A DNA stretch of 63,794 nt, the filler included, from Pelomyxa schiedti (taxonomy: Eukaryota; Protista; Evosea): the NCBI GenBank assembly GCA_020536535.1. It is 8 parts of 8 records of this genome, joined end to end, with 100 filler letters (N's around TTAATTAATTAA, not from the genome) between each part and the next. Parts side by side here need not be neighbours in the genome. Positions count along the whole stretch, not along the records: positions 12,577 to 31,002 come from JAHLWZ010000143.1; 7 more parts are not named here. The stretch is one strand, 5' to 3'. Position 1 is the stretch's first letter. Each line of letters begins with the position of its first letter. Both the position numbers and the translations under genes were made by a program. Under the pieces are notes generated by a model. It was not told the origin of the DNA. It saw only the letters and a list, made by a program, of their open reading frames with translations, and did not search any database. Below, in pieces: positions 1 through 42,438 of the stretch.

Positions 1-3000
1 AATGTTGTAAGTACCCCGTCAGAGGAGATGAAAAATACGATCATAGGAAAAGATCGCTGCAGTTGCTGTCTGAGCTGTGTCAGAATCTGGAATGTAAACA
101 GTAACATTCAAGCCTGCTCCAACTCCTACAGGAGGAGAGCAACCAATCTGTGTGTGGGCAACTTTCACACGTGCAGAGCTGCACACATCCCCATTTATTT
201 TTACTCCTACCTGTTAAACGCATGAACAGAACTGAAAAAAAAAAAAGTACAATACGTTAGTTCCAAGTGGTCCAAAATTGGAGCCATAGATGATAGCCTC
301 TTGTCTTCCGTCAGTCCCTGAACCATCTGCAGAGGACAAGGTCGGGGCTGCCAAAGTTGAGTTGGACAAGAAATTTGACCCACAGTACCATTATAGGAGA
401 AGATCGACTTAGTACTGGAAAGAGGGAAACTGTATCCCGTAGAAGTTGCTGGGATGGAGACTTGAACAGGCAATAATCCTCCAGCCCCTGGAGGCGGGAT
501 ACATGCTATTTCCACATGTGCTCGGCTCACAGAGGCATTAGCGCAGATTTTTCCGTCAATTGTAACAGCAACAGACGAATTCAATGGTCCAAAGTTGCTT
601 CCAGTAAGAATTACAGGGATGCCTCCTTTTGTGTCACAGGAAGTAGTACTATCCAGCTTAGGAGCTATCAGAGTTAGCATTATTTATTTGATTGAAATGC
701 ACACCATTGTATGAAAATACATTGGAGGAGGCATAGTGGTCAAGGCCAGGAACCAATACCTCAGTTTGGGTTTGTTAAGTGCCACGAGTTTATTGATGGT
801 TACCTCCACTTTCAGTGAAGATCCACAGCCTGGTGGAGGGGAACAGGCAATTTGCTTATGTGCTACTTGGACAAAAGCGTTTGGACAATTGACGGAGTTT
901 ATACGAACGGTCACGTTTGCCCCAATGGGACCAAAATTCGCTCCACTTATAACTGTCTTAGATGGGGCATCAGTATCGATTGGGCTTGCAGAAGTTATTT
1001 CAGGAGCTGCGTAATTTCAACCAATTTGGAGGAAAAAGACACCACACCTTTGTAAGAAAAAACAGAGTCTGTATGCTGGGCATGATTTGGATCTGAAGGA
1101 ATCCATAGACGGAGGGGGAGTACACCATATCCAGGTGGTGGGTAGCAAGAAACCTTGGTATGATTCTTGGACACCCAAGGTTCGCGGCAAGGTTGCCCTC
1201 CAATTGTGATATTGAAAGTTGCATCCAGAGATGATCCTAGGTTAAATCCTTCGATTACAAGCGACTCATTTCCATCCGTGTTGGCACGTGAGACAGAGGA
1301 AATTGAAGGTGCTACTAATATTGAGATTGTGCAAAGAATGTGAAAAGCAGACCTGTGTAGTCGAATACAGAAGAACTACAGTTCTGGGAGCCAAACTTTC
1401 CCTCAGCAGGTACCCAAACACCCACCACAACTTCAGCTCCAACACCAGGAGGCGCAATGCATTGAATCTGGAAATGGTCTACCCAGATAGTGGCATTCAA
1501 GCATGGTTTGCCACCAATTCGTACAGAGACACCTCCGGCAGCATCCAAGGTGCCAAAATTAGTGCCATATATCCTTACACTGGTACTTCCTGCTGTATCA
1601 GCAGAGCTGGCGAAAGATACAGTTGGAACTGCAGTGGGAATAGTGTAAAAAAAAAAAAAAAAAAAGTGATCCTGTACAATTGTAAGAAAAAGCACTAGCC
1701 GAGTACTGCAATGAAGGACGCCCAAATCTGGCAACAAAGACAGTAACTGTCAACCCTTCAAAGTTTCAAAGTGAGAAAGCGGCACCATGGGGAAACGGGG
1801 GAAGGACACACCAGCACCAGTAACATTGGCTGGTGGGTAACACTGAATCTCATGATGCGGAACAGAAACGGCAGCCTCAGTGCATTCACTTCCATTAATG
1901 GTTACACGAACCACTGTATCCAGAGGACCAAAGTTTTTCCCTGAAATCTATGAGGGGTCAAAACAAATGAATATATTCTTGGGTCCAACTCGTGTTTGAA
2001 CACGTTCATATGTATTAATACCAGTTGCAGAGTAGACTATTGGGCCTATCAAAAAGGTTGGTAGAGACGAGGAAAGGAGACTGTACCATTGTAAGAAAAA
2101 ATGTCAGCATAACCCTCAGTTTGGTTTCCAGTTTTTGGGAGCACAAAAATAGTTGTTGTGACATTTACACCAATACCGTTAGGTGGGTAACATTGTATTT
2201 CCGTATGAGCAATAGTCACAGTGGCGTTAGTGCACCATTGCCCATCGATCGTAACATTCACTGGCGTACCAACTGGGCCAAAGTTAGTGCCTGTTATAAG
2301 CGTCTTCATTGGGGGGTAGTTCAAGGTATCAACACTGGTGGAACTGAATGGGATCGGATCTTGTATCGACTTAGAGGGAAAAGGGGGTTATGGTGGACTT
2401 ACTATCATATGAAAATATATACGCCTTGCCCACAGTGAAATCGGCACCCGGTGAGGCAACACGGACCAAGACAATAAGATCTGCCCCAGCCCCAGCTTGA
2501 GGTACACATGTTATGTGTGTATGATTGAGTACAGTTGAATTATTGCATTTCTGTCCACCGATTTCAACTTCACTGAGTGTACCAGCAGGACCAAAGTTTT
2601 TCCCAACAATAACAGTAGTACCATTACCGGCTGTTGGAGTGGAACTGGAATAAGATGGAATAGGTGCTTGGGGAAAAGGTTAGGTTGAAAGTACTTCAAT
2701 GGGATTGAACTACCTTCATAAGAAAAAACTGGAGTACTCGGGGAGCTTGCATTAAGGTCTTTATAAATAAAGTATACAACAACAGGAAGATTAGCTCCAG
2801 CTCCAGGTGGAGGAAGGCAAGTTATTTCTGTATCATCTTTCACTACTTGTGGATCTTCACAAGAAAGCCCATTGATTTTTACGTGCACGCCTGTGCCACC
2901 AACTGGGCCAAAATGTTGTCCTAGTATGGTGGTCTGTGTAGTTCCAGTTGTAGGAACTTGTGTGGCATTTGAAATTTCGGGGTCTGGTTTTAGAAATGTT

Positions 3001-6000
3001 GGTTGGAAAGGTAGACATAAGATGATACAAACATGTATATGAAAATAGAGTAGCATTGACTACAACAAAGTCTGAACTCCCTTTAGGGGCAATGCCAACA
3101 GTAACGAGAGCGGCTGTCCCTTCTCCAGGTGGTGGAGAGCAAAGAATTTTCGTGTGTGATACTACTGAGGCATTTTTACAAGATACACCTCTAATAGTGA
3201 CCCACACAGATGTCTCATTTGGCTCTCCAAAGTTTTCTCCATAAATGTACGCCATGAATCCGTTTTGGGTTGGAAAGCTGGAGCCCCCAGTGATAATGGG
3301 ATCTATTAGTGGACAGTGAGGGCAATGGAAAAACTGAGGATCTACCAGCATAGCGGAAAGTAGCATATCCAAACTGTGGGTCATCCAATGGAGTGCCCAC
3401 AGATAAGGCCTTGGTTCCAACCCCTGGGGGTGGGTAACATTTAATTTCCGTATGAGCAACTGTTATGGTAGCAGAGGAACAGTTGTGGAGCCCAATCTGT
3501 ACAAAGACTTGAGTCCCGAGTGGTCCAAAGTTTTGGCCTGTTATGGTGGTTTGGACCAGGCCATTTGTGTTGACAGGTGTGGCATTGATTATGCTGGGTT
3601 CTATTATATTTGTGAGTTTTTTATCTTCCAAAGGGTCATCATACTGCTGTAGTTGAACAGTGTGATGGAAGAAAAAGTTTGGGCGCTAGATCCAGAGGAA
3701 GGAACAGAGACTGAGAGTGGCTTAAATGCACCAGCTCCTGGGGGCGCAATACAGGAAAGGTGCACATGAGGCTCGAGTAAGGATACATTAGTGCAGGGCT
3801 GGCTATTTATTTGCACATCGATACTGTCAACTGGCCCGAAATTAACTCCATAAATATTGATCAGTTCGCCTTGTGTCACAGAATTGTCACAAGAATAAAC
3901 TATTGGTTCTGGAATAAAGTAAATACTCAAGGGCACATGGAACAAAAGATACTTGGGTAATTGAAGGAATTTGAGGTACTGGTGGAAGAATTTAGACCCC
4001 CAGGAAGAAGTACAGTAATTACAACTTCCAAACTTTTGCCGCAACCTGGAGGAGGTGTACATTGAAGTTCCGTGTTATTGGTTATTACAACTATGTCTCT
4101 ACAAGGAGTTCCGCTAATAGTGATGTTAATTTGGGAGCCAGATACACCGAGGTGATCACCGTGAATGGATACCTAAAATTTGAAAGTAAGGCCTATGAGA
4201 AAAAAACTATGTATTACAGTGGAGTTTCCGAAAGTTGAAAGAGGTTCAGATATTGAGGAGATCACAGGGCTGTCAGGAACAAAAACACTTGCAGAGGTTT
4301 GCACCCATGCAGTATCACCAACATTGGACAACCACACAGTAACTAATGGACCTACTTCGATGTAAACAAGGAGGGTTACAGAGTCATTAGAGCTACCCAT
4401 GGTTCCTGGTGCTGGGGTGCATTTAATAACTGTATGTGCCACATATATAATCGAATCAGAGCACTCCTTATCAGGTGCAATGACAACTTTAACCCGGGTG
4501 CCCAGTGGCCCAAAGTTTCCACCATTTATAAGAACAGAGCCATTGTACACTCCAGCAGAAAGAATAACAGGGGCTGACAGAATAAGTTTACGCATGAGTT
4601 GTAAGACATACGGCTGTAGTGGAATACAGTATTACTTCCAGTTTGACCTGATACAGTTACTGCGACTGCCTTATTTTCACCAACACCAGGAACAGGAAAG
4701 CAAGATAATGCCTAAAGCAATTAAGAGAAAAAGAAAAACAAAGGAAAAAACTTACACTGTGTGAAAACAGTGAAACTGGTGAACAATAATCACCTCCAAC
4801 AGTTACAGAGACTAAAGATGCAGAAGCCCCGAAGTTAGATCCAACAATCACCGTAGGATTCTTTCCATCTGTGGATACAGCTGTGGCAGTAATAACGGTA
4901 GGGGCTGAACGGCAATAAGAAAGGGAAAAGAGGCCAAGATTACCTTGGTAAGACAGGAGTGCGTAGTAAGTATTGCTGAGAGGGTAGCTATCTATGGAAC
5001 TACTCAGCCACACATCATGGCTCTGCCCAGAACCTGGCCCAATAACACATGACATTCGAGTATTGTCAACTTCCACAATTGAGAAGTTGCAGTCCTTTCC
5101 GTCAACTTGGACAGCAACCTGCACTTTATTATTACGGAAAAATAATTTTACTGTAACATTACCTTTGTGCCAACAGGGCCGTAGTTAAGGCCTACCAGAG
5201 TAATTCTGCCACCATCAGTTGGTGGTGATGAGATTGATGAAATAGTTGGAACTAAACTATTAAATCACACTTCAAGAAAAACCAATAGTAGGCAGTACCA
5301 CTATAGGAGAAAACCCTTTGAGCAATCGAGGTCTGTGAGCTGACATTCACTTGTACGTTGTGACCCCCTCCTATAACGGCAGGTTAAGTGAAGATTTGCA
5401 TGAGAATTACCGACCTATCCCAGGTGGTGTTGTGCAGGAGATCGATGATTGGCTTAGGACTTGGGCATTAGAACAGGCGGTACTATCTATGAGTGCAGAG
5501 ACAGGTGTTGTACCAGTAGGTCCAAAGTTAGTCCCAGTAATGTACGTTATGGCACCAGTGGTGACCGTACTTGTTGCTGAGGAAACAGACGGCGCTACAG
5601 GGAATTTAATATCATCAAAACTGGTCGATACACGGACCATTGTAAGAGAATACACTTGCATAACCCGTTAAACCTGAAATAGTTACACTAATAGTACGCT
5701 TCACACCAGCACCCGGTGGGGGGTAGCAAGTTATTTGCGTGTGAGAAAGAACGGTAGGATTAGAGCAAGTTCCAGTTCCAATAGTTACAGTGGCCTTCAT
5801 AGAGATAAATAATCAAAAGGAGAAAGTGTTGATACAGTAGTTCCAGCAGGGCCAAAGTTCGTGCCTGTGATGGTTGTAAGGGTGCTACTATCAGTGTTTG
5901 CTGGTGTTGCTAATGAAACAATTGGAGCTGTATTCAGCCGTTAAATAAAAGTTTTTCTAAAAGGGGGGATACCAGGATATGTATAGGATCCTGTTCCGCG

Positions 6001-6634
6001 TCGAGAGTCCCCTGACGTTACTTGAATTGAGACCGTTTTGGTTCCCACACCAACAGGAGGGTTGCACTGAATCTGAGTGTGAGCTACGGTAACAGAAGCG
6101 CCTGTACAAGACACTCCTCCAATCCACACAGCAACTACAGTAACACGGGTTCACAATTGTTGAAACAATAATGGTGTGATACCGTAAGTCCCAGTAGGTC
6201 CAAAATTGTTGCCAGTTATTGTAACTTTAGTTATTCCGTCAGTACTGCCCCCCGTAACACCATAGCATGCTGGAGCTTGTTCCGATTAAGTGCACAAACG
6301 TCAGTAAGAAAAGGAACTTACCATTGTAGTCAAAAATGTTCGCAGAGCAACCACAGGTGCTGATAGAAATAGGCAAATCGACACCAGCACCAGCCGGCGC
6401 CGTGCACGTGACGGTATTTGACATGCCCCAGGAGTTGTAGTCACTTCCGTACTGGTTGGAGCACGTTTTGCCGCCAATGGTGACGGTGAAGTCATTGTTG
6501 TACCTCCAGGAGAGACTTTGCCCTCTGATAGTGATACTAGTGCTTCCGTACGTGTCTGACGACGTAGAGCTGGAAATCCACTGCCCCCAGCCGGCATCGG
6601 CACCACAAAAAAAAAACGCGGCAACGACAACCAT
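1..6634 (-). CDS. Giant multi-exon cell-surface/secreted protein with at least 20 tandem IPT/TIG (Ig-like) domains; 3' end lies beyond the window start
   Basis: Hydrophobic signal peptide MVVVAAFFFCGADAG at 6634 (upstream in-frame ATGs exist). The motif ITGxNFGPxG..V.V.I.G..C....V..HT.I.C..PPG.G recurs about every 330 bp (20 copies counted from about 6530 to 280), split by short introns. Confidence 0.9.
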
Positions 6635-7085
6635 TACTGCCGCTAGTCTGCAGTCGCTGCCGCGGCACCAACGAATACTGCAAGATCTAGATCCGGGTCT
6701 CCACCTGCCATGCCGCACCATCGTTGCCCTCTGCATTTTTTTTAAAAAGGATTCCTTCGATGCTTTTTCCTTTGTTCCAAAATCTTGATAATCCCAGCAT
6801 AAACGGTCCAGTGCTTCGTTGATTTCGGAAAAGTAGGCCCCGATCTGAGCCATCAACTGGCATTCTGCCAACGAATCTTTTGGGCTCGCCATCTCCTTGG
6901 CTCAGAAAAAATCACGGTGCATGTTCATTAGTAGTCTCTCGCAGGCTCAATCAGGATGATGGGACCCCCAGAGCCTCAGTCTTCAAGCCAATTGGGCGAA
7001 ACTCGTTTGAATTCGAATCAATCCCCTTTTCTTCTTTCGAAGCGTCGCGCGCCTTTTCGTCGTGTGCTGTAGTTATCCCATAACG

Positions 7086-10910: not shown

Positions 10911-12393
10911 TCATGTGTTGCTGCTTGATTGCAAGGACCTCAGTGTGGCAACAGCACCCCTGTGACCCAGGTCAGCAGCCTGACGCCACAATCCAAGTGC
11001 CCTGGCAGTATCCTTGTCAATACCATCAATAACGCCTTGCAAGGTTGAACATTGCCTGGGCATCACCAGCATCAGCAGCCCTCTGATAAACCCTGTGGTA
11101 CAGGGTCATTGCCTTGTGAGTGTCCTTGCCAACACCTTCACCATTGTAATAACATGCACCAAGGTTGCACATTGCACCAGCATCACCAGCATCAGAAGCC
11201 CTCTGCCACAGTGTTGCTGCCTTGTGAGTGTCCTTGCCAACACCTTCACCACTGTAATAACACAGACCAAGGTTGCACATTGCAACAGTGTGACCAGCAT
11301 CAGCAGCCCTCTGGTACAGTGTTGCTGCCTTGTGAGTGTCCTTCTCAACACCAGAGCCATTATTATAACAGACACCAAGGTTGAACATGGCCTTGGGATT
11401 ACTAGCATCAGCAGCCCTCTGATAAAGTGTCACTGCCTTGTCAACATCCTCGTCAACACCATCACCATGGAAATAACACACACCAAGGTTGAACATTGCC
11501 AGGGCGTCACCAGCACCAGCAGCCTTCTGGTACAGTGTCACTGCCTTGTGAGTGTCCTTGCCAACACCTTCACCATAGTAATAACATGCACCAAGGTTAC
11601 ACATTGCCCTGGTATTACCAGCAGCAGCAGCCCTCTGGTACAGTGTCACTGCCATGGGAATGTCCACAGCAACACCAGTGCCACCTCCATAACTAGTACC
11701 AAGGTTGTACATTGCGGTGGCATCACCAGCATCAGCAGCCCTCTGGTACAGTGTAACTGCCTTGTGAATATCCTTCTCAGCACCACCAAGACCAAAATCA
11801 TAGCAGAGGCCCAGAGATGTGACAGAGGAAACCCACCAGTGAAGCTCACCCATGGAAGAAGCAATCAGGGGATTGCTTCTGTCTTCAACAACACTGATGT
11901 TGGTGTAATGTGATGAACTCATTTCAGTAAAAATGTGTGGTGCTGATGAACCTTGGTGTTTGTCCTCAGAAGAGCAGAACATCCTCCACAGGGCAACAAA
12001 GTACATGTGGGACCACAACTGTTCTACTGAACCTTCCATGGGTGTTGATTGTGATTGTGGATCAACATTGCCTCTCGAAGCTGCAGTTGACACAAGGTCA
12101 GTCCATTCAGAAATAACCTCTTTTTTGTGGTAGAGAGTCTCCTGCTGGTCTGATGTTTCACTGAGGTAACTCAACACACGCCTGCAATATGCTCTCATTT
12201 CCTCTGTTGGGAAGGAGATGGCACGAGAGAAATCCAGAGACAGGCACGTTGGAATGTGCTGATGAAGTGACACGTGGTCATTGATGACACAACGGAGACA
12301 AACAAGGAACAAGAGAGCAGGGAGGTATCCACACTGATGGTCATGATGTGATTCTGATTTGTGTTGGTTGGATGAAAACAAGCAAAGACACAT
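10911..12393 (-). CDS. Sel1-like repeat protein (7 complete SLRs plus a frameshifted 8th); 5' end uncertain, near the contig edge
   Basis: 36-aa repeats AMxNLGxCYxxGxGVxKDxxKAxTLYQRAADAG. After the stop at 11026 the repeat continues in another frame (DGIDKDTARALGLWRQAADLGH) to TGA at 10911. Confidence 0.9.
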
Positions 12394-12476: not shown

Positions 12477-12575
12477 NNNNNNNNNNNNNNNNNNNNNNNN
12501 NNNNNNNNNNNNNNNNNNNNTTAATTAATTAANNNNNNNNNNNNNNNNNNNNNNNNNNNNNNNNNNNNNNNNNNN
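12477..12575. other. Artificial contig linker N-TTAATTAATTAA-N (also at about 31003, 36229, 39545, 42756, 44537 and 52783)
   Basis: Identical six-frame-stop 12-mer embedded in Ns; genes are cut at the linkers and do not resume after them. Confidence 0.95.
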
Positions 12576-13741
12576 NTCTTTGCGATTAGACCGCATCCCG
12601 ATGAATTGTGAACAAGACACCCAAGGGATGAAACTGTCTCACAAATAGTATCTGAATCGCACTCAAAACTCACCTGTTTGTTGTTGCGTAGGTGGTATCG
12701 TGATTAGCATAAAAACTAAAGTTGGTTAGAGCAACTGCAACGTGCCTTCAATTCGGTTGGTGTTGGAGCCTCAGTATCAGCACCAGAATCGCAAAGTTTT
12801 TTGAGACGAGGTGTGAGAGTATCATTGACAGCCACAAGTTGGAGGTCAGTGAACTTCGTTGTTGCCTGTTGTGCATATTCTTGTGCCTCCTGTAAAACCT
12901 TCGTCTTGTTGTCGCATCCTTCAATGCTTTCTTGGAATGGGTCAGTGTGAATTGGTCGGGACAAAAATAATGCCTTTTTGGCAGTCTCTGTGATTGTATT
13001 CACTTCTGAGAGCAGTTGTGCCTCCCTGGCATTGACAAATGCAACAATCTTGGCAAATTCAGTTCGTATTTCTGACTTGACCTTCTCTGAAGCTTCTTCT
13101 GCGTTTTTGCAACACCCCTTGTTATTTGTGGTTTAAATGTCATTTCACAATAAATTTGGACGAGAACGCACAATTGCAGTGAGTTTAGACAGTGAAACCT
13201 TCTCCAGAAGCAATGACAACTTGGCACTAAGTGATGAAATGTTCTCCTTGAACTTTGGGCTCAGGTCACTGACAACAACGAAGTCGTGGTTGTTGTGGTC
13301 GATCTTCCTGATAGAATTGTGTTTGGTGTTGAACAAAAGAGAAAAAGGCACACACGTGCAGCCACGGCAAATCGGCGACTTGTCAGTGTTGCAATACAGT
13401 AGCAACTCCTCATGTGGATGCTTGGAGCATGCGCCTAGTTTTGGCGCCGTTTGTTTCTCGCAATCTTACTTAGTAGGAGGAGAAGGACCTGAGAGTGGCA
13501 CACAGGGCACGTCACTGTTGATGTTGATGAGGTGGGACTCTTCGCCGAGGTCGAGGTTCCGGGCGAATATTGCGAGCATAGAGTGATGCACTCGAGGCAC
13601 AAAGTGTGCAAACACGGCAGGAGCCTGGTGGTCGTGAGGACGTTTGGAAACACGAATTTTCCAAATTGTAGACCTTGGGTCCCGAAAGAAAGAGGAACAA
13701 CAAGGGCACGTTATTTTCCCGATCACATCGCCTCGGTCCAT
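12576..13741 (-). CDS. TRIM-like RING-B-box-coiled-coil protein (copy 1), 3' truncated by the contig end
   Basis: Spliced RING CPCCSSFFRDPR|LLPCLHTLCLECI...VTCPVC; B-box CSKHPHEELLLYCNTDKSPICRGC..HNNH; coiled coil highly similar to 18840-19500. The RING/B-box junction frame is unclear. Confidence 0.8.
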
Positions 13742-14089
13742 TCAAATCCTTGGTTTTTCCCAAGTTCGTTCTGGTCATTTTCAACCACGCAACCCCCTAC
13801 TGGTGATGCGTTCCGAAAACGTTCTGTAGGCGGGCGTAACGACGATGGTGAAGAGTGACTGCAGTTACGAGGCACCGTGGAACGGTAACGGTGTCACTGG
13901 CGATCTCACAGAAAAACGTGCAGTGGTGCACGATGCACAGCCTCGCTTTGGCCCAATGTAGGCAACTAGCCCCCACAAAGGCACCCCATCATCTGCATGA
14001 CAGACTGCCACACCAACACATGTAACTGCACAGTAAGTATTGGGGCAACAGAAAAACAATTTGTGTGATTGTTCCAACATGGAACACCC

Positions 14090-14342
14090 AGGTGGTGCTT
14101 TAAGTGGTAGTGCTTGTGGCAGTGCTCATGGTGGCAACAATGGTGGTAGTGCCTACAGTGGCAGTACTCATGGTGGCACTGCTCGTGGTGGTAGTGCTCA
14201 GAGTGGTGGTGCTTGTGGTGGTGCTCATGGTGGGGGTGCTCATGCTGGCAGTGTGCACAGTGAGAGTGCTCGTAGTGGAGGCACTCAAGGTGGCAGTGCT
14301 TGTGGTGGTGAGGCTTGCAGTGGTGGTGCTCACAGTGGTAGT
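14090..14342 (+). repeat. Degenerate 15-bp minisatellite (GGTGGTAGTGCTCAT-like, about 16 units; reads as GGSAH repeats)
   Basis: Period-15 units visible directly; ORF MEHPGGALSGSACGSAHGG... at 14079-14363. Confidence 0.75.
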
Positions 14343-14834
14343 GTTAGTCAGCTGAAAAAGTGATAATACACTGGGTACTGGTGGGTGGAAGCATATCAAC
14401 AAATAACATGGGCCTGGTAGGTGTTTAAAAAGCTCATTAAAAAGTAAATAGGAAACCACCCAAAAATGGCTCTCTTTGTTCACACATTTTTGGGTGGGTA
14501 CACAGAACAAAAAGCTCTATGTTAAGGAAATGTGCACAGAACACCAGGACCTTTCAGATGTTTACACTCTTAATGCAGTGGCACTGAGTTTGGCCCAGAG
14601 CTACAGTCCTGTTTTTGCCATTGGAACAGGGAAACTCGATCCACAATCAACACCATGACACAATTCGATGGATCTTGTGGCACTGTTCCGAGGTAAGTAT
14701 GTATCGCCCTGTTTGTGCTATGTCACACCAACCTGTTTTGTTCCACCAACAGGGTTCCCTGTAGACTTTTGGAAGGGCAACATGCCGGAAGTTGTTACGC
14801 TTTTTGTTGGGGATGGGCACACCAACCAGGCACG

Positions 14835-15800
14835 ATGACCACGCGCCCACCCAAGTGCACTGTGTGTGGGTCAGATGAGGTTCCGTGGTGGTGCCCGTGC
14901 TGCGGCGTGTCCCTGTGCAACGAAGACCAGGGACACCACTCACGTGCATTGAAGACTGCGCCACACAAGGTTTATTTTTTCATCTTCCATATTGTTTCTC
15001 ATGGGGAACATATATCACTTAGATTGAATGAACACAAGAGGCACGAATATGTTGCTGTAGGTGACCTGAGCCCAAAATTCAAGGACAACATTGCAACACT
15101 CGGATTGTTCACAATTCAATAGCAGGCACACTTATTACCAGGGATTTGCCACTCAACCACTTGATTCATCGCCTACCTTCGGCCACAGCTGACATAGTTT
15201 GAGAACATGACTAGCTTCATCAACAACACTAATTCAAGGTAATCAATTCACACTCAAAGTGGTGCCCCACAACTCCGAGGGCCCGTGCCAGGCCGTGCTA
15301 CGTGTACCGCGCCCCATATAGTACATCCACAATGACAAAGGTGCGTGTGAGTGATGGGGCAACAGTCGCATCAGCCCCACTTCCAAACGCCGGTCACACA
15401 AATCAATCGGCGTGGAGCTGGGGCGGATACACAGACATTTGTTGGTATGTTGATGCAGGGGGTGTGCTGTTCGTGGTCCACGCACCACCAGACAACAACA
15501 ACATACACATCACGAGGGTGGACCCTGCCAACCTTGCAATCCTGAAGTGGGAGGTGCCCCGCGTCAAGAGGAAGACAGGGTTAGCATTTGTTGGTGGGAA
15601 GTTCTACTTTGGAAAGTCGCACAACTAGGTAAGAACCACGTACTTGCTGGGTGTTGGGATGTTTGACACCACAATGCATGCACGATCCCGACTTTGGAAA
15701 GTCGTCTTTAGTGGATTCCGTCTACAAACCAGCTCCTCGTCATTGACCTGATGGCGGCACCGAATTCCGCGCTTTCATCTTTGACAACGTTGCTATGAAA
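14835..15800 (+). pseudogene. Decayed TRIM-olfactomedin gene (copy 2): B-box1, partial B-box2/coiled coil, deleted and frameshifted OLF domain
   Basis: CTVCGSDEVPWWCPCCGVSLC..HH; LNEHKRHEYVAVGDLSPKFKDNI; SWGGYTDICWYVDAGGVLFVVHAPPDNNNIHITRVDPANLAI; stops and deletions relative to 19228-20235. Confidence 0.75.
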
Positions 15801-15889
15801 CGAGCGCTCGTTCCGCTTCGTTTCGAATTCTCCAATTTTTAGCCGAAAACAACAGTTGGAACCAAGTTTTCTCGCAACTGTAAACAACA

Positions 15890-17781
15890 ATGGACATGGA
15901 GCAGCTTGACGCGGCGTTCGCGGCCATCAAGAAGCAGATGGCGGAACAAAAGCAGCGGGACCAGGCGGAGCTGGAGGAAGTCAAAAAGAGAGACATGGCC
16001 GAGCTGGCGGACAAGCGCGACAAGATGATGGCGCAGGTGGAGGAGGAGCGAGCGAGGCTCAAGACCGAGTGGGACTGGGTGTCACTCGCCACCGGAAAAT
16101 CCTCAAGGTCTCCTTGTGACCCCGACGAGGTTGACCCTTATTATTACCCACAAGATCTCTCGTTTTTTTTGGGTTTTCCATGTGGCTTTTATTCGTTCTT
16201 CTATTTCGTTTCTGTTTGTTGCTTTTTGACTAACTTCTATGTACGTTAAATACTACAAATAGGGGGCTGGGGAGACAAAGCTGGGAATTGGTGAAGTTGT
16301 GAAGCTGAATGTTGGAGGAGTCAGATATGACACAACAATAAAAACCCTCCAAAAATATGGAAAGTCCAGGCTTGTCACTCTTTTCAGTGGTGAGCATCCC
16401 CTTCAGCGGGATAGTGATGGCTGCTTCTTTCTTGACACAGACGGAAAGCGCTTTGCATATGTGCTGAATTTCCTGAGGCGTGGATTTGTGTCAATTCCAA
16501 AAGGAAAGGAGCACTTGGTGCGAGAGCTTCTCTATGAGGCAGACTTCTTTGGCCTTGAAGAAATGAAGGTGGAGATTAAAAAAGCAGCCGACTACTTGGG
16601 ACGCACCCAGTTCTACAACCTGTTTCCAAGTGAGAGTATTTTCATCCCTGAAGGGGTAACATTTACCTCTGCCTCTGGGGGTGGCTCCTCTGGGTCACAT
16701 TGGAATTGGAACAATACTAGAAGACCAACTTCTCTTTTTTCTATTCAAGGAAACGAAGTATCAATCAATCAAACCATGAGATTCCTTTGCTTTGTGAGAC
16801 TTCCTGGCGTCTCAAGTGGGAATAATGGCCATGCTGAGATATACCTTGCCGGGTCTTCAATTGCGCATTATTGGCGCAATGAGCCTAGCGGATATGTCAA
16901 CCAAGTTTTCTTCAACCAAGTAATTGAGGCTAACTCTGGAACAAAGTTGAGTGTCTACAACAACTCCCTAGGCCACTGTTACAATCACCAGATCTCCTCA
17001 ACATCATGTCTCCTCCTTCTTCCCCTTCGAGACACAGTTCCCGTATTGCAGTGTTCCTCAACAACCAATTCAGGGAACTGCTGGTACTGGACCCAAAAGG
17101 CCGAGTGCCAACCTTTCACCGTGGCAAACCAAACCATCACAATCAAGCCTGAGGGACTGTACTTCGTTTTGGTAAGGGTGACGGGGCATTCAACCGGTGG
17201 CTATGTTCAATTGAACTGCGCCGGTTCTTCAATTGCACAGTGCCACATGAACGAAGGCAACAGCTACTCCAACTCTGCCATCATTTCCGAGGTTGTGCCT
17301 GCACAGGCTAACACCCAACTCAGTTTCATGCAACAGCTACACTCCATCACAGTACGGCGCAGCCACGGCACTTTCAGTGCTTGGGCCGCTTCCAGGAGAC
17401 TCCTACATTTCCTTTTCATGCAGTGCAGCAGCTTCGCCAAACCAATACTACAAGTGGCAATTCAGGCATGGTTGTTCCGCCCTTGCAAGGGTTGAAAGTG
17501 GCTCTTCCATCTTCATCTCACAGGCAGGGCTCTATCTGGTCATTGTTCGGATCACAGCAAGTTCCAACAGTGCCAACTCTGGGTGGGCGGAACTTCAGGT
17601 AAATGGCATTCCATATGCTCAGGCATTCATCTACAATGCAAATTCTTATTGGAACACGGTGCACTTCTCTGAGGTGCTGGAAGTTCAACCTGGATGCAAT
17701 CTTTCAGTTTGCAACAGGGGCCTCAACACCTACAACATCTGCACTACGGAAGTGCACACCCTCATTCTCATTCGTATGTGA
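15890..17781 (+). CDS. Coiled coil + KCTD-type BTB/POZ + three tandem C1q/TNF-like (BclA-C-like) domains; one frameshift at about 17320
   Basis: Intron 16130-16262; VKLNVGGVRYDTTIKTL...DSDGCFFLDTDGKRFAYVLNFLR (BTB/T1); three repeats of about 130 aa with I.I...GLY.V.VR......L...G..IA..........EV......LS. Confidence 0.8.
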
Positions 17782-18060
17782 CATTTGCTCAAGGAACATA
17801 AAACTCCTTTTGTTTAAAATATTACAGAGCTACATCGTGATATCCGGGAGCCTAACAGATTAGCTGTGAAACCACCAACTCATTCTAACCTCACTCTGCC
17901 TGAGGCAATCCCCAAGAAGCCCAAGCGGACTCGTAAATCGAAATCCAACCCAAGTGCCGTACCGCCGACTCAGACCGCCCATCGAACGTAGGTGCTCGGC
18001 AGAGATTAGCTCCGGTTTGTTGATGGAATTCACGACGTCGCCCTCATGTATTTGCCGGAT

Positions 18061-18162: not shown

Positions 18163-18481
18163 CCTTTTGATTCATCACTTGCATGTTGATACTTTGGGCA
18201 TAGGAACCTGGTGTCAATTAAATTAAATCAGCAGTTGAGACGCAGTCAAGTTTTTTTCTTCTGAAGCGGTCCATAGTTCCATCAACAGTCGCTCTGACAT
18301 CAGGGAATCATAGTAATCCATTAATGAAGTTTATTAAAGAACCACCTTCCGTGTCCCTATTGGCATGCCGATTCAAGTGCGTGTGTGGCCACATTTTGTT
18401 TTGGCTCGTTTTTTACCATCATTTGAAAACGAAAAGATCACCGTCTCTTCCCAGAAAAAGATCAAAAAAAAAAAACGAAGT

Positions 18482-20400
18482 ATGGCGCCATTCTCGTGTA
18501 CCCTTGTTGTTCCTCTTTCTTCCGCAACCTGTGTGTACCATGAATCTCACACACTCTTGCCCTGTTTGCACAGCTTATGCCTCGAGTGCATCCTCCTCAC
18601 CCGACCCCAGCGTAACCTCGTTAAGTGTCTCCCCGCGATCTATCGTTACATGCCCTGTGTGCCCGGAAACAACAAAAAACAGACCACAACTCCACCTGAG
18701 GCGTTCCCCTTTGACTTTTGCGGTTTTATTGCAATACTGACGAGTCACTGATATGCCAGGATTGCACGTATGCTTGTCTAATGGGGAGCATATATATATA
18801 TCATCATTTAGGTTGAATGAGCACAAGAACCATGAATGTGTTGTTGTCAATGACCTGCGCTCCCAATTCAAGGACAACATTGCCTCACTCTGTTCGCAGT
18901 TGTAATTGTACCTGGAGAAGGTTTCAATTTCGAAGCTCACCACAATTGTGTGTCTTCCATTCCATCATCCTAATTCTTTTCTTCCTCACAAACAACAAGG
19001 AGTGTTGCAAAAACACAGAAGAAGCTTCAGAGAAAGTCAAGTCAGAAATACGAACTGAATTTGCCAAGATTGTTGCTGTTGTCAATGCCAGGGAGGCTCA
19101 ACTGCTCTCAGAAGTGAATACAATCACTGGAACTGCGAAAAAGGTCTGTTAATTTTGCTGTTGTCCCCTTTCAACTGACAGAGACCACAAGACATTCCAA
19201 GAACACATTGAGGAATGCAACAACAAGATGAAGGATGCACAAGAGGCGCAAGAATATGCGCAACTGGTGACAACGAGGTTCTATGACCTCCAACTTGTGT
19301 CTGTCAATGATACTCTCACATCTCGTCTTAAAAAACTTTGCGCTTCTGGTGCTGAGAATTGTTCTCAAATACCAAATGAATTTAAGGTATCTTCCCCACA
19401 TCCACAATGTAAAATGCACAAACAAAAGGTGAGATTTGAATGTCATTCCACTTCCGTTTGTGGAACAATTTCATCACTTGGGCGTCTTGTTCACGACTCT
19501 GCCATCAGAAAACGTGATGCTAAGGTAACGACAGAGGCAGCAGAAACTACGACGATGACGAGGACACTCAAACAACTTGACACATTGTCGATGGTGCCCT
19601 CCATTCCACCGCGTCAGGCACACAGGCTGTTTGTTGACAACGCAACTGGAAAAGTGTACTGCGACAGTACGTACCACAATCCAGAACTGACAGAATTCGA
19701 GAACATGACGAACTTCATCAACAACACCAACCCAAGACAATTTACACTCAAAGTGGTGCCCCATTTCCCCCCGGGCCCGGGCCAGGCCGTGCACAACGGC
19801 CACGTGTACTGCACCCCATACAGTACATCCACAATGACCAAGGTGCGTGTGAGTGATGGATCAACAGTCGCAACTGCACAACTCAGAACCGGTCATTCAA
19901 AGCAATCATCATGGAGCTGTGGTGGATACACAGACATTTGCTGGTATGTTGATGCAGGGAGTGTGCTGTACGTGGTCCACGCACCACCAAAGGACCACTA
20001 CCAGAGCAACATACACATCACGAGGGTGGACCCTGACTCCCTCGCAATCCAACAAACGTGGGAGGTGCCCCGCATCAAGCAGCATACTGCCTTTGCATTT
20101 GTTGTGTGTGGGAAGTTCTACTTTGGCAAGTCTGATCGCAGCCAGGAAATCAATGGGTATTTGATACCGCGACTGGTGTTTATGATGACACTTACAGAAA
20201 CACACTCCCAACAACCAGCAAGTATGTGGCTCTGACTGCGTGGATACAGCTCCTCGTCATTTCCCGCTCTAATGACAGCACTGAGCTCCGCTACTTCATC
20301 TTTGACAATGTTGCTCTGTGAACCCAGCACCGGTCGAACTGTGTGTCATCACGGGAAAGTTTGCATCTGTATGTATTCCGGGCCCATTCGCAAGAAAAGT
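18482..20400 (+). pseudogene. TRIM-olfactomedin gene (copy 3): RING, B-box, coiled coil and a nearly complete OLF domain; disabled
   Basis: LLPCLHSLCLECI..VTCPVC; coiled coil; OLF motifs ELTEFENMTNF, GPGQAVHNGHVY, WSCGGYTDICWYVD, NIHITRVDPDSLAIQQTWEV, AFAFVVCGKFY. In-frame TAA at 18903 (TCA in copy 1) and frameshifts near 18600 and 20155. Confidence 0.8.
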
Positions 20401-28260: not shown

Positions 28261-29042
28261 CTAGTATCTTCCGTATGTGGATGGGGGTCGGGACTGCATT
28301 GTTGGAATTGCCATTGTTGTGGATTGAACAGGAGCACGGATTGGTTCCCGCAAGTTGCGTGGCTTCCACCACTCGGGGCGGCAGTAATCGTTGCACTCGT
28401 GGTGAACAAAGAAGTCGTTGATTCCTTGTGGTCCGAGGTCTGTGACTCCAAAGCTCCTTGTGGCTGACATGATGACTGGATCGCTGATCACCGCCGCGTC
28501 TCTGTACACTCCACCTTGAAGGTCGCACAGCAGCTTTTTGCCTCGATTGATGTGGTAAGAAAAGTGACTCAGTGCTTGCATGACTTGGCCCCACGGTGTG
28601 CCATCCTCGGACCAACCAGTGTTGGAGTTGAACTTCTCCCAGTTCTCAATGAATGGCTCCACAAGAATCTTCTCACCCTCCCGCTCCCCATAACATTCCC
28701 AGACCTCCGCTCTGTTCACGAGTATCGGTTTGTTGACAAAGTGTGCATCATTCCACTCCTGCACAATTGACACTGCCTCGTCGAGGGCGAGAATATCCCG
28801 TTCATAGAAATGCTCCTCGAAAACGGCACCCTCTTTGAACCACTTTGCCACGCAACGCTGTCCGGAACGAGTCCCTGCACGCCGGTGAAACGGCAAGCAC
28901 AAGTGGGGGGAAAAAAACCTTCGTTGTAAGTGCCCATACCAACCCATCGAAACGCGCCAGACGTGAAGGGACGAAGGTCAACAACAGCATGATTGGACAG
29001 GTTCTCCCTAACCGATGTCCAACGGTAGTCGTGCGCCGCCAT
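28261..29042 (-). CDS. Stand-alone alpha-kinase (eEF2K/MHCK family), one intron
   Basis: PFTSGAFR; CVAKWF; LVEPFIENWEKFNSNTG; QALSHFSYH; LLCDLQG; SDPVI; FGVTDLGPQGINDFFVHHECNDYC. Confidence 0.95.
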
Positions 29043-30882: not shown

Positions 30883-31102
30883 ATAAGAGCTTTCAAGGGG
30901 AAGAAAAGTTTCCAAACACCATAGAGAGTACCACAGCACCGGAATCATTCTTTTCATTTTCCCAGAAGAAATCTTGTTTCGTTTTTTTCTCAAGATCCTG
31001 CANNNNNNNNNNNNNNNNNNNNNNNNNNNNNNNNNNNNNNNNNNNNTTAATTAATTAANNNNNNNNNNNNNNNNNNNNNNNNNNNNNNNNNNNNNNNNNN
31101 NN

Positions 31103-39643: not shown

Positions 39644-42438
39644 NCAGCAGCAGAAACATTGTTGGAAAACAAGAAAAAAACCTGGAAATCACTGGAAAAC
39701 AGCATCAGAGTAACACTTCAAATCAAATTTAGCGTTGTGCACACACCCACCACTCACGCTTTGTGAAACAGAAGAAATCACAGAACTGAATGCACGAATC
39801 ACACAATTGGAGGAAGAAAACGCAAAGAACCTGAAGCTTCTCCGTTATGAAAGACAACTCAACCAAGAAAGATTTGTTGACTCAACTGCAAAGAACAAGG
39901 GTTTTAACCTCCTCCTTTTTTCTCTCTTAAACACTTCACACCCACCCAAAAAAAAAGAGCTGATGGAAATGATATCCACACTGGAGGAAGAAAGTGCCAA
40001 GAATTTGAAGCTCTTTTGCGATGAAAGAGCATCTGATCAACAAAGATTTCATAATCTCCAACACTGTTTGTGCCTCACAATACCCCTCAACCAACCTTGC
40101 ATGGCACTAACTGGCAATGACAGACACGAATCATGTGATGTCACATATTGAACAAGGAGAAGGCACATGGTGCAACATTCTCCCTGAAAACAACTGCAAA
40201 CGCTTGCAAACCAGGATTGTATTTGAGGACCTTGCCCCTTTTGAGGAAATTGTGTGTGGCTCCTGTCCACTTCAGATGGTATTTTCATGTCCTTTCCTCT
40301 CTCTTGGATCCCATCCCCCACCCATTTCTCGTTGTTTGTGATTTATTGCTCTGGTTCCTTGTGGAGAAAAAAATCCAACCAAACCCAGGTTGTGAAAATC
40401 ATCATCTCAAGGAAGTTTGGAGTTGAACCTACACAACAAGTCATTTTCGTTGTTGGTCCAGATAACCCCTCAGTGGAACTGTTGACCGACCCATCCAGAA
40501 CCTTGGATGAAATTCAACAGCAACAACAAGGCAACAGCAACAGCACAGACAGAGTTGTATCAATACAAGTCCGAATCAAATCAAGCATGACAGTTCAAGA
40601 GCAAGACTTGAAAGTTGTTTCCACACTTGGGGTTGGATCGTATGGAACTGTTTTCAAGTGCACTTTCTTCCTTCACAACAACACAGCAGCAGCAACACCA
40701 TCCTCCTCCGAAACACCAACAACAACATTGGTGGCAGTGAAATCACTTCACGAAAGCATAAAATCTGAGTTCAACATCACAAGGTTTCATCAAGAAGCTC
40801 TGGTGTGTGTGTCCCTGATTATTCTGTGTGTTGGAAATCACCACTCACACACAACCCCCACAAACACACAGATTTCATCGAGCTTGCGGCATCCAAACAT
40901 TGTGAGATGCCTTGGAACGTGCGTCACGAGCACAGGGTCACTCTGGATCGTCTCGGAACTCATGGAATTGAGCCTCCGGCAGCTCCTTCAACACGTTCGT
41001 TTGGCCTTTTCTTCCTCCTCGAAGTTTACTTCTTTTGACACTGACACACACAACACACACCAGAATAGTTTGACATTTGTGGAAGTTGTTGCGATCTCTT
41101 CAGGAATTGCCAAAGGAATGACTGCACTTCACATGTTTGTGATTTCTCCTTGCCTCTTTTTTGAATTGTTGTTTTCTTTCATGAAAGTAATGTGCTGTGG
41201 TATTTACTATGTTTACAAACACAGGAGGAATATCATGCACCGAGACCTGAGCAGCAACAACGTTCTCCTGGATTCTTGTGGAACTCCAAAAATTGCTGAT
41301 TTCGGTTTCTCTCTCTCTCCAGCCATTTCATTCCAATTTAACGCGATCACCAAAGGAGTGTCAAGAGCCAGCGTTGGAAATTCTCTCCCTGGCCGCGGCA
41401 GAGGAGTTAGACCAACACCACTTGGGACTTTCACAAACGGTGCAGGAACACCGATTTACCTGCCACCACAGATGCACAGTCGTCACTACGGAATTCAAGG
41501 TTGGGGTGAACTCTTGAATTCCGTTGTTGTTCTGACACTGATCGCAGGAGACATGTGGGAGTTCGCGGTTTTGTTGAGTGAACTTCTCCAAGGCACCATC
41601 CCAGAGGTCACACTCCCCAAGTCCTTTGCCAAAATGGGTGAGTTTATGAGGCTCCAGAAGTTATCACTGTCATCCCCTGAAATTGCCGGTTTGTTTCTCA
41701 CAAACAAAAAACACTCACACACAAAACACCGAGTTCTCTCTCCGTCTCATCGCACTCACAACACACACAGAAGTTGACCGGCTTTGTGATGACGTTGGAG
41801 ACATTCCCGTTGCCGAGTGCCTCGGCCGGAGGAGCGCAATTATTTCGGCGTTGCGTTCTGATCCCAAGATGAACAACGTGCACCGTGCGTGCGTTGGTCT
41901 GTTCTCTTTCCTTGTTGAGTCCTGCCTTTCAATCCTCGGTTCGTTTCCCCGCACCCATTCATATTCACTTCCCCCCTCATAAAACACACAGAAACTCACC
42001 GGCCTTCTTTCCCGGCGATTGAGAAAATCATGATGACATGTGCGGAGCTCATATTCTCATCANNNNNNNNNNNNNNNNNNNNNNNNNNNNNNNNNNNNNN
42101 NNNNNNNNNNNNNNNNNNNNNNNNNNNNNNNNNNNNNNNNNNNNNNNNNNNNNNNNNNNNNNCGTTTCCCCGCACCCATTCATATTCACTTCCCCCCTCA
42201 TAAAACACACAGAAACTCACCGGCCTTCTTTCCCGGCGATTGAGAAAATCATGATGACATGTGCGGAGCTCATATTCTCATCACCCAGTCCAGGTGAAGG
42301 TTCCACACCCACAATCACAAGTACAAGCACATGCACACGCAACCTCACACCAACTGGCAGCACCAACGACGTGACGGGACACATTTCGGCATGCCTAGCG
42401 GGAATAGCTGCATCTTTCCCTGCTTCCCGCTCATTTTA
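39644..42438 (+). CDS. TKL-group protein kinase with an N-terminal coiled coil; multi-exon, 5' truncated
   Basis: LGVGSYGTVFK; VAVKSL; LRHPNIVRCLG; IMHRDLSSNNVLLD; KIADFG; AGTPIYLPP; GDMW; HRPSFPAI. Confidence 0.9.

What the first reader, a model, noticed from the sequence alone, without database searches (positions are those of the whole stretch)
15890..17781. BTB adaptor fused to three tandem C1q/TNF-like domains inside the TRIM-OLF cluster
Seen: a KCTD-type BTB followed by three beta-rich repeats with the I.I...GLY.V.V...L..NG pattern, and no signal peptide. Established: KCTD BTBs often recruit Cullin-3, and C1q/TNF domains act as trimers. Inference: a single-chain pseudo-trimeric C1q head used as a cytosolic recognition module. 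Together with TRIM-OLF, this gives two normally extracellular recognition folds wired to ubiquitin-ligase modules at one locus, a possible cell-autonomous defence or symbiont-control system.
Basis: partly seen in the sequence, partly recalled or inferred. Interest (0 to 1): 0.7.

Follow-up and report, generated by a model that had tools for sequence, protein, structure and literature searches.

The report
BTB adaptor with single-chain TNF/C1q trimer
This amoeba gene is a frameshifted copy of a gene whose intact twin joins a protein-pairing (BTB) domain to three TNF/C1q-type domains predicted to fold into one three-part binding head, a build also found in unrelated protists that likely marks targets inside the cell for ubiquitin tagging, although a defence role and a partnership with the neighbouring genes are untested.

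Summary
The architecture is real: coiled coil, KCTD-type BTB (Pfam E 6e-19) and three ~125-residue repeats. The window copy carries a 2-base frameshift in repeat 2, present unchanged in contigs of three runs, so it is not an assembly slip. A 90%-identical intact copy exists (P0001, Pelomyxa schiedti, 586 aa). Its AlphaFold model (pLDDT 74) superposes residues 206-586 on an engineered single-chain TNF trimer (Z 44, 2.6 A, 374 residues), supporting the pseudo-trimer idea. The repeat belongs to a wider TNF/C1q/BclA-like family mostly without signal peptides: 128 of 137 sequences examined, 45 with a BTB, 6 with BTB plus three repeats, including records labelled as dinoflagellates. My literature searches found no description. 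The locus-level story is weak: two of three neighbouring TRIM copies are broken, the third runs off the contig before any OLF domain, the four other OLF paralogues lie on other contigs, and B-box-OLF hits came only from Pelomyxa. One real link: the second copy sits head-to-head, about 76 bases from a TRIM start codon. Cul3 binding, ligand and defence role are untested. Verdict: an undescribed protist adaptor family, seen here as a broken duplicate.

The parts
15890..16129 (+). Exon 1: charged helical (coiled-coil-like) N-terminus, 80 aa, no signal peptide
   Evidence: helix 3-66 in model; 76 of 77 residues identical to P0001
16130..16262 (+). Phase-0 GT..AG intron (inferred)
   Evidence: donor GTTGAC, acceptor AAATAG; junction matches the P0001 model; no spliced RNA contig seen
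16299..16571 (+). KCTD/T1-type BTB domain
   Evidence: Pfam BTB_2 E 5.6e-19; KCTD7 E 2e-16; TM about 0.8 to KCTD BTBs
16605..17030 (+). TNF/C1q-like repeat 1
17031..17394 (+). TNF/C1q-like repeat 2, broken by a 2-base loss at about 17320
   Evidence: second version has 2 more bases behind 17320; window version in X1, X2, X3
17395..17781 (+). TNF/C1q-like repeat 3 and original stop; out of frame in this copy
   Evidence: single-domain Z 15-17 to APRIL, EDA, BAFF, C1QL, CD40L
17493..17495 (+). Premature stop reached after the frameshift
   Evidence: (ORF 16263-17495), P0002 ends here
12580..13741 (-). TRIM copy C: RING, B-box 2, coiled coil in six in-phase exons, cut by the contig end; no OLF seen
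   Evidence: zf-C3HC4 E 3e-4 on exon 2 alone, zf-B_box E 5e-7
13757..15859 (.). 2.1-kb stretch absent from the second copy (low-complexity repeat plus broken B-box/OLF copy B)
   Evidence: joint 13756 to 15860 with 31 other letters in X1 and X2
14900..15797 (+). Copy B: fragmented B-box and OLF remnant with frameshifts and a stop
   Evidence: annotators' stitched model is P0007
18480..20318 (+). Copy A: RING-B-box-coiled-coil-OLF gene with disrupted RING and B-box exons and a frameshift at about 20157 in OLF
   Evidence: (OLF E 1.5e-22)

Best explanation
The window holds a frameshifted duplicate of a Pelomyxa gene whose intact copy (P0001) encodes a coiled coil, a KCTD-type BTB domain and three TNF/C1q-like domains predicted to close into one single-chain trimer, and the intact protein likely works in the cytosol as an oligomeric substrate receptor for a Cullin-3 ubiquitin ligase. 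Shown: domain order, the frameshift, the second intact copy, the family in other protists. Predicted: fold and trimer packing. Inferred: the BTB (helped by the coiled coil) would oligomerise, most often as a pentamer in KCTDs, and bind Cul3; the trimer head would bind the target. Putting three domains on one chain would give every subunit a complete head, remove the clash between five-fold BTB and three-fold TNF symmetry that single-repeat relatives face, and let the three faces diverge. The ligand is unknown. The window copy was under purifying selection until recently and then broke, inside a patch of decaying TRIM-OLF duplicates.
For: Fold: VIA Z 44.1, rmsd 2.6 A, 374 residues to single-chain APRIL-BAFF-BAFF and Z 36-37 to single-chain C1q, Cbln1 and adiponectin trimers, next rows 17 or less; Foldseek E 4e-19, TM 0.77 by target; the same entries led even with the alignment-free, low-confidence model. 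Sequence: family profile hits CD40L (E 6e-5), EDA, collagen X; 44 of 76 aligned members match BclA_C, 6 TNF, 4 C1q at E 0.01. Family: 137 hits among 1.84 billion representatives; by my HMMs 45 of 137 carry a BTB, one more (P0028) carries a RING, so the domain is repeatedly tied to ubiquitin-ligase modules; P0008 is colinear with P0001 over the whole length (26%, E 3e-55). No convincing member has more than three tandem repeats. Selection between the two copies: BTB 13 silent and 2 replacement changes (dN/dS about 0.04), repeats 0.15 to at least 0.3; 3 of 189 versus 49 of 393 residues differ, p 3e-6. The loop after helix 2 has the FSG start and the length of the Cul3 binders KCTD7 and KCTD10. 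16 of 25 human KCTDs bind Cul3 (PMC10856315, passages).
Against: Cul3 binding was not modelled or measured. The same loop has a proline at the position of KCTD1, a non-binder, and PMC10856315 (passages) says global similarity does not separate binders from non-binders. The trimer is an AlphaFold prediction from 14 sequences (pTM 0.64) and may echo trimers it was trained on. 83 of 128 family members have no detectable BTB (some are fragments) and 11 have two repeats, so neither the BTB nor the number three is obligatory. Differences between copies are not enriched in loops (24 of 49 in strands against 221 of 395 residues, p 0.36) and dN/dS stays below 1: no sign of diversifying selection. Expression is not shown.
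Confidence: 0.52

Rival explanations
1. Same fold, but a Cul3-independent scaffold like KCTD1/12/16: the BTB only oligomerises and the multivalent heads cluster a partner protein or membrane.
For: KCTD1 is among the closest solved BTBs and shares the loop proline; 9 of 25 human KCTDs do not bind Cul3 (PMC10856315, passages); most family members lack a BTB and use other N-termini, one a dynamin-like GTPase (P0051).
Against: FSG loop start and loop length match binders KCTD7 and KCTD10; a RING-fused member exists (P0028), which suggests the domain can serve ubiquitin ligases.
Confidence: 0.28
2. One reading: the gene and the TRIM-OLF genes form one co-regulated cell-autonomous defence or symbiont-control unit that recognises foreign surfaces in the cytosol.
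For: Second copy is head-to-head, about 76 bases between start codons, with a RING-B-box gene; faster change in the repeats than in the BTB; two P. schiedti symbionts live free in the cytosol (PMC10579272, abstract); invertebrate C1qDC proteins bind microbial patterns (PMC6835236, PMC10672478, passages); Dictyostelium uses the ligase TrafE and cytosolic discoidins in infection (PMC11552500, passages).
Against: Window copy and copies A and B are broken; OLF is not seen on the head-to-head TRIM (contig ends); 0 of 4 other OLF paralogues lie on the 72,443-base contig of P0001; the second copy diverges 110 bases after its stop, so copy A is not shown downstream of it; the BTB-repeat build occurs in taxa where no B-box-OLF hit was returned; no positive selection.
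Confidence: 0.14
3. The window copy is not dead but a truncated form (coiled coil, BTB, one and a half repeats) that joins oligomers of the intact copy, or the two copies are diverged alleles with one loss-of-function allele.
For: BTB still almost unchanged at protein level; the new stop lies in the last exon; one 184-base contig of RNA-library run X4 matches the window version.
Against: Repeat 2 loses its last strand and the trimer cannot close; a 2.1-kb stretch separates it from the head-to-head arrangement of the other copy; flanks of the two copies do not align beyond 17892; the X4 contig is short, depth 3.6, unspliced and may be DNA.
Confidence: 0.06

Closest known systems
KCTD family BTB proteins (KCTD7, KCTD10/13, KCTD1, SHKBP1; PMC5664961 abstract, PMC10856315 passages)
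   Same: T1/KCTD-type BTB (E 2e-16 to KCTD7; TM about 0.8), N-terminal to a separate C-terminal module, no signal peptide.
   Different: C-terminal module is three TNF/C1q-like jelly rolls; an N-terminal helix precedes the BTB; Cul3 binding and oligomer state untested.
Engineered single-chain TNF/C1q trimers (PDB 4zch, 5hkj, 4dou, 5kca) and TNF ligands APRIL, EDA, BAFF, CD40L
   Same: Predicted fold and three-domain packing (Z 36-44; single domains Z 15-17).
   Different: Natural rather than engineered, 8-19% identity, very short linkers, no collagen stalk or transmembrane anchor, fused to BTB.
Bivalve multi-C1q proteins (smultiC1q; PMC6835236 and PMC10672478, passages)
   Same: Three tandem C1q-clan domains in one natural chain, sometimes with a coiled coil.
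   Different: Those are classed as secreted and match Pfam C1q; 'BTB' does not occur in the main text of PMC6835236; the repeats here do not score on Pfam C1q.
Caprin-2 C1q domain (PDB 4ous, 4oul; cytoplasmic location recalled, not from a call)
   Same: C1q-fold domain used inside the cell; Z 14.5.
   Different: Single domain that trimerises between chains (recalled); no BTB.
Bacillus BclA C-terminal domain and predicted viral multi-C1q proteins
   Same: BclA_C is the commonest Pfam match in the family (44 of 76); BFVD holds three-domain look-alikes from a mimivirus, Hyperionvirus and phages (TM 0.55-0.70 by target for several).
   Different: Surface or virion proteins by their labels; structural similarity only, no sequence relative found in viral contigs.

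Membership tests
KCTD/T1-type BTB proteins | BTB_2 (PF02214) domain above the curated cut-off | tested here: met
   68.7 bits against cut-off 21.4
KCTD/T1-type BTB proteins | Soluble, no channel or transmembrane segment | tested here: met
   highest 19-residue hydropathy 1.13
KCTD/T1-type BTB proteins | BTB-driven oligomer (mostly pentamer) | not tested
Cul3 substrate adaptors | BTB binds the Cul3 N-terminal domain | not testable with these tools
Cul3 substrate adaptors | Permissive alpha2-beta3 loop | tested here: inconclusive
   length and FSG as in KCTD7/KCTD10, proline as in KCTD1 (criteria from PMC10856315 passages)
TNF/C1q/BclA superfamily | Jelly-roll beta sandwich of TNF/C1q topology | tested here: met
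   model-based: Z 15-17, rmsd about 2 A over 120-127 residues; profile E 6e-5 to CD40L
TNF/C1q/BclA superfamily | Trimeric packing of three domains | tested here: met
   predicted only: 374 residues at 2.6 A on a single-chain trimer; pTM 0.64; cannot hold for the frameshifted window copy
C1q domain family proper (PF00386) | Match to the Pfam C1q model | tested here: not met
   no match for any repeat or P0001 at E 10; only 4 of 76 relatives match
TNF ligand family proper (PF00229) | Match to Pfam TNF and type II membrane anchor | tested here: not met
   no match, no transmembrane stretch
Bivalve smultiC1q | Signal peptide | tested here: not met
   acidic helical N-terminus, no hydrophobic core (simple hydropathy test, not a trained predictor)
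TRIM (RBCC) for neighbour copy C | RING, B-box, coiled coil in order | tested here: met
   six in-phase exons; zf-C3HC4 21.1 bits on one exon, zf-B_box 30.3 bits
TRIM-OLF as one intact gene | RING to OLF in one open frame | tested here: inconclusive
   copy A has all parts but is broken; C is cut before OLF; P0003 and P0004 are B-box-coiled-coil-OLF with no RING in the deposited models

The most novel reading that the evidence does not exclude
Protists have an undescribed family of cytosolic ubiquitin-ligase receptors that use the TNF/C1q trimer, known mainly as an extracellular signalling and immune fold, to recognise foreign or damaged surfaces inside the cell; single-chain trimers arose several times from one-domain ancestors, and in Pelomyxa the gene shares a promoter with a TRIM ligase to police cytosolic symbionts.
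Probability: 0.15. Interest if true: 0.82.

Novelty: new variant of a known kind. Interest (0 to 1): 0.52.

Why it matters
It shows a TNF/C1q-type trimer head, in a natural single-chain form, on a KCTD-type adaptor in amoebozoan, dinoflagellate-labelled and other protist records, a pairing that Pfam misses in this protein and that my searches did not find in print. If the Cul3 link holds, it adds a new substrate-binding module to Cullin-3 ligases and gives non-animal, intracellular relatives with which to ask what the TNF/C1q fold did before animals. P0001 is a ready test protein, and a natural short-linker single-chain trimer is of some engineering interest. The gene at these coordinates is itself a broken duplicate, and the defence-cluster reading is not established.

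Tried and rejected
Assembly error as the cause of the frameshift: rejected, the window version stands in contigs of X1, X2, X3 (one sample, so not independent populations). An intron removing the break: no need, P0001 is colinear across it. Uniqueness of the repeats: the word-index search returned only P0001, but the full HMM scan found 137 hits. DNA-pattern scans for relatives in viral, metagenome and prokaryote contigs found none (64, 282 and 59 pattern matches, 0 confirmed); these scans are insensitive. PKD, Ig_2 and Amidase_5 Pfam hits are below cut-off and contradicted by the fold. Alignment-free model was low confidence (pLDDT 40). Alignments A2 and A4 were mis-registered between repeats and not folded; A3 (14 three-repeat proteins) was used. 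Nine hits were left out of HMM building (8 Ig, FG-GAP or other repeats with no family domain, and P0135 with four weak scattered matches). Expression: X4 gave one 184-base unspliced contig at depth 3.6, no evidence either way. Loop enrichment of differences: none. The 23 of 23 count of charged proline-free stretches before the BTB is a loose rule with no control. No whole genome was held, so genome-wide co-clustering could not be counted. Literature searches without a relevant hit: BTB/C1q/Pelomyxa, C1q domain/tandem/intracellular/protist (39), olfactomedin/TRIM/amoeba/RING, 0 papers (46), C1q/three tandem/single chain (65), BTB/TNF-like/oomycete/C1q (100), C1q TNF superfamily/BclA/origin/unicellular (105); the library lacks most subscription papers and no supplements were read, where domain lists might hold this architecture. 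Earlier scan notes held nothing on this sequence.

Full report
What is in the sequence. The gene starts at ATG 15890. Exon 1 (15890-16129) encodes 80 charged residues with no hydrophobic N-terminus; after a phase-0 GT..AG intron, exon 2 runs from 16263 to a stop at 17779-17781. It holds a BTB_2 domain (E 5.6e-19) whose nearest solved relatives are KCTD7, KCTD1 and KCTD10, then three repeats of about 125 residues that are homologous to each other (15-23 SD above 500 shuffles).

The window copy is broken, a second copy is whole. The frame shifts at about 17320. Contigs of runs X1, X2 and X3 (one sample) carry 17264-17688 exactly as in the window, beside a second version with 35 other letters and 5 more bases; the indels of that version (6 fewer at 16118, 3 more at 16814 and 17307, 2 more at 17320) are those expected from P0001, a 586-aa protein named Pelomyxa schiedti KAH3745885.1 on a 72,443-base contig. 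I therefore take the second version to be the gene of P0001 (inference). The window copy would give about 490 residues, losing the last strand of repeat 2 and all of repeat 3; the deposited model for it is P0002, 310 aa from an internal Met. Between the copies the BTB exon part shows 13 silent and 2 replacement changes (dN/dS about 0.04); the first part of repeat 1 shows 15 and 9 (0.15); three further stretches give lower bounds of 0.17-0.31 (using the 39 listed differences between 16268 and 16883, of 111 in the table, and contig totals elsewhere). Both copies were thus constrained for most of their history and the break is likely recent. The repeats change faster than the N-terminal half (49 of 393 versus 3 of 189 residues, p 3e-6), but not above neutrality and not preferentially in loops. 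Whether the copies are paralogues or old alleles cannot be settled; their flanks part at 17892.

Fold. An alignment-free model was poor (pLDDT 40), yet its top five Foldseek rows were single-chain C1q/TNF trimers. With a colinear alignment of 14 three-repeat proteins the model reached pLDDT 73.8, pTM 0.64. Residues 206-586 superpose on single-chain APRIL-BAFF-BAFF (Z 44.1, 2.6 A, 374 residues) and on single-chain C1q, Cbln1 and adiponectin trimers (Z 36-37); single domains match APRIL, EDA, BAFF, C1QL and CD40L at Z 15-17. Independently, a family profile hits CD40L at E 6e-5, then EDA and collagen X, and 44 of 76 aligned members match BclA_C, 6 TNF and 4 C1q. The repeats are therefore TNF/C1q/BclA-superfamily domains, not members of Pfam C1q or TNF proper, and the pseudo-trimer is a well-supported prediction, with the caveat that AlphaFold has seen such trimers.

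Distribution. A profile of the three repeats found 137 proteins at E 0.001 or better among 1.84 billion representatives. With my own repeat and BTB HMMs on 137 sequences (P0001 in place of P0002): BTB plus three repeats 6 (one with a partial third), BTB plus two 4, BTB plus one 35, no BTB with three 6, two 7, one 70, 8 false and 1 doubtful. Of 10 looked up, 4 had taxon labels: Tripos fusus cluster (P0008, BTB plus three, colinear with P0001 at 26%, E 3e-55), Dinophysis acuminata (P0039, BTB plus three), Mesostigma viride (P0011, BTB plus two), Paulinella micropora (P0014, three, no BTB); transcriptome labels may hide prey or contaminants. One member has a RING, one a dynamin-like domain. Only 3 of 102 Met-starting members have a hydrophobic N-terminal stretch by a simple test. 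In a tree of 62 repeats from 30 proteins, repeats of one protein often group together with strong support (P0014 100/99, P0051 98/90, P0016, P0028, P0109, P0026), which suggests repeated duplication or homogenisation; the Pelomyxa repeats are long branches of unsure place and no constrained test was run. Three-domain look-alikes also appear among predicted viral structures.

Neighbourhood. Spacers in the window show that the gene lies on a contig spanning 12577-31002, 18,426 bases, the length given for P0002 and P0007. Three TRIM-type copies surround it. Copy C (minus strand, ATG 13741) reads as RING, B-box 2 and coiled coil over six in-phase exons, one with a GC donor (such introns are 1.59% in this species, PMC8887013, passages), and is cut by the contig end before any OLF. 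Copy B is a fragmented B-box/OLF remnant; copy A has disrupted RING and B-box exons and a frameshift in OLF. A search with copy A returned 5 proteins of 625 candidates, all P. schiedti: P0007 is the stitched model of copy B, and the other four lie on contigs of 3,554, 163,912, 1,539 and 1,206 bases, none on that of P0001 (only 198-630-residue proteins were searched). P0003 and P0004 are B-box-coiled-coil-OLF. One positive link: a contig in X1 and X2 joins 13756 to 15860 through 31 other letters, so in the second copy the TRIM start and the BTB start face away from each other about 76 bases apart, as for a shared promoter (inference); only about 74 bases of that TRIM are seen.

Mechanism. Most likely the intact protein is a cytosolic adaptor: BTB oligomer plus Cul3 at one end, trimer head at the other. 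KCTD BTBs take several oligomer forms and reassemble 5:5 with Cul3 (PMC5664961, abstract); 16 of 25 human KCTDs bind Cul3, and the alpha2-beta3 loop decides much of it (PMC10856315, passages). The loop here has binder-like length and FSG but a KCTD1-like proline, so sequence does not decide. A single-chain trimer would give each subunit of a five-membered ring its own complete, asymmetric head (inference). A defence role is plausible context only: two symbionts of P. schiedti lie free in the cytosol (PMC10579272, abstract), invertebrate C1qDC proteins bind microbial patterns (PMC6835236, PMC10672478, passages), and Dictyostelium uses TrafE and discoidins and has a single TRIM (PMC11552500, passages). 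Nothing tested here ties this protein to such a role.

Comparison and verdict. Each part has precedent: KCTD adaptors, natural three-C1q chains in bivalves (21 oyster genes, three domains in most, classed as secreted; PMC6835236, passages), and a C1q domain in Caprin-2. The fusion of a KCTD BTB to TNF/C1q-like heads was not found in six searches, which cover open-access text only, without supplements. I rate it a new variant of a known kind. Interest 0.52.

Noticed in passing
window 12580-13741 (-), 18480-20318 (+); P0003, P0004: B-box-coiled-coil-olfactomedin proteins in an amoebozoan, with a RING in the window copies: a TRIM-type gene with an OLF propeller as C-terminal domain; only P. schiedti hits and 0 papers. 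Possibly the more unusual architecture at this locus.
   Followed up: partly
window 13742-13756 and 15860-15889: In the second copy the TRIM and BTB start codons are head-to-head about 76 bases apart, a candidate bidirectional promoter; the window copy has 2.1 kb in between.
   Followed up: partly
window 12477-12576, 31003-31102 and five more: 100-base spacers of N around TTAATTAATTAA mark joins of separate contigs; genes across them are not neighbours.
   Followed up: yes
P0028: RING, a Cys/His stretch that looks by eye like TRAF zinc fingers (recalled likeness), a helical stretch and two TNF/C1q-like repeats: a TRAF-like build with a different trimer fold at the end.
   Followed up: no
P0051: Dynamin-like GTPase fused to three TNF/C1q-like repeats.
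   Followed up: no
window 14067-14360 (+) and 14436-14669: Gly/Ser/Ala-rich low-complexity repeat and an adjacent stretch on which many other contigs lay, perhaps a dispersed repeat that came with the 2.1-kb stretch.
   Followed up: no
window 11029-12393 (-), 28264-28977 (-), 40245-41774 (+): Sel1-repeat protein (7 repeats), alpha-kinase (E 4e-45) and a protein kinase; ordinary amoebozoan genes, the first and last on other contigs.
   Followed up: no
window 2514-6901 (-): Multi-exon gene with repeated beta-rich units that look by eye like IPT/TIG domains (recalled likeness, not scanned).
   Followed up: no
BFVD rows: Predicted three-domain C1q/BclA-like proteins in a mimivirus, Hyperionvirus, Terrestrivirus and phages match the whole trimer head; a possible route of spread, untested.
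   Followed up: no
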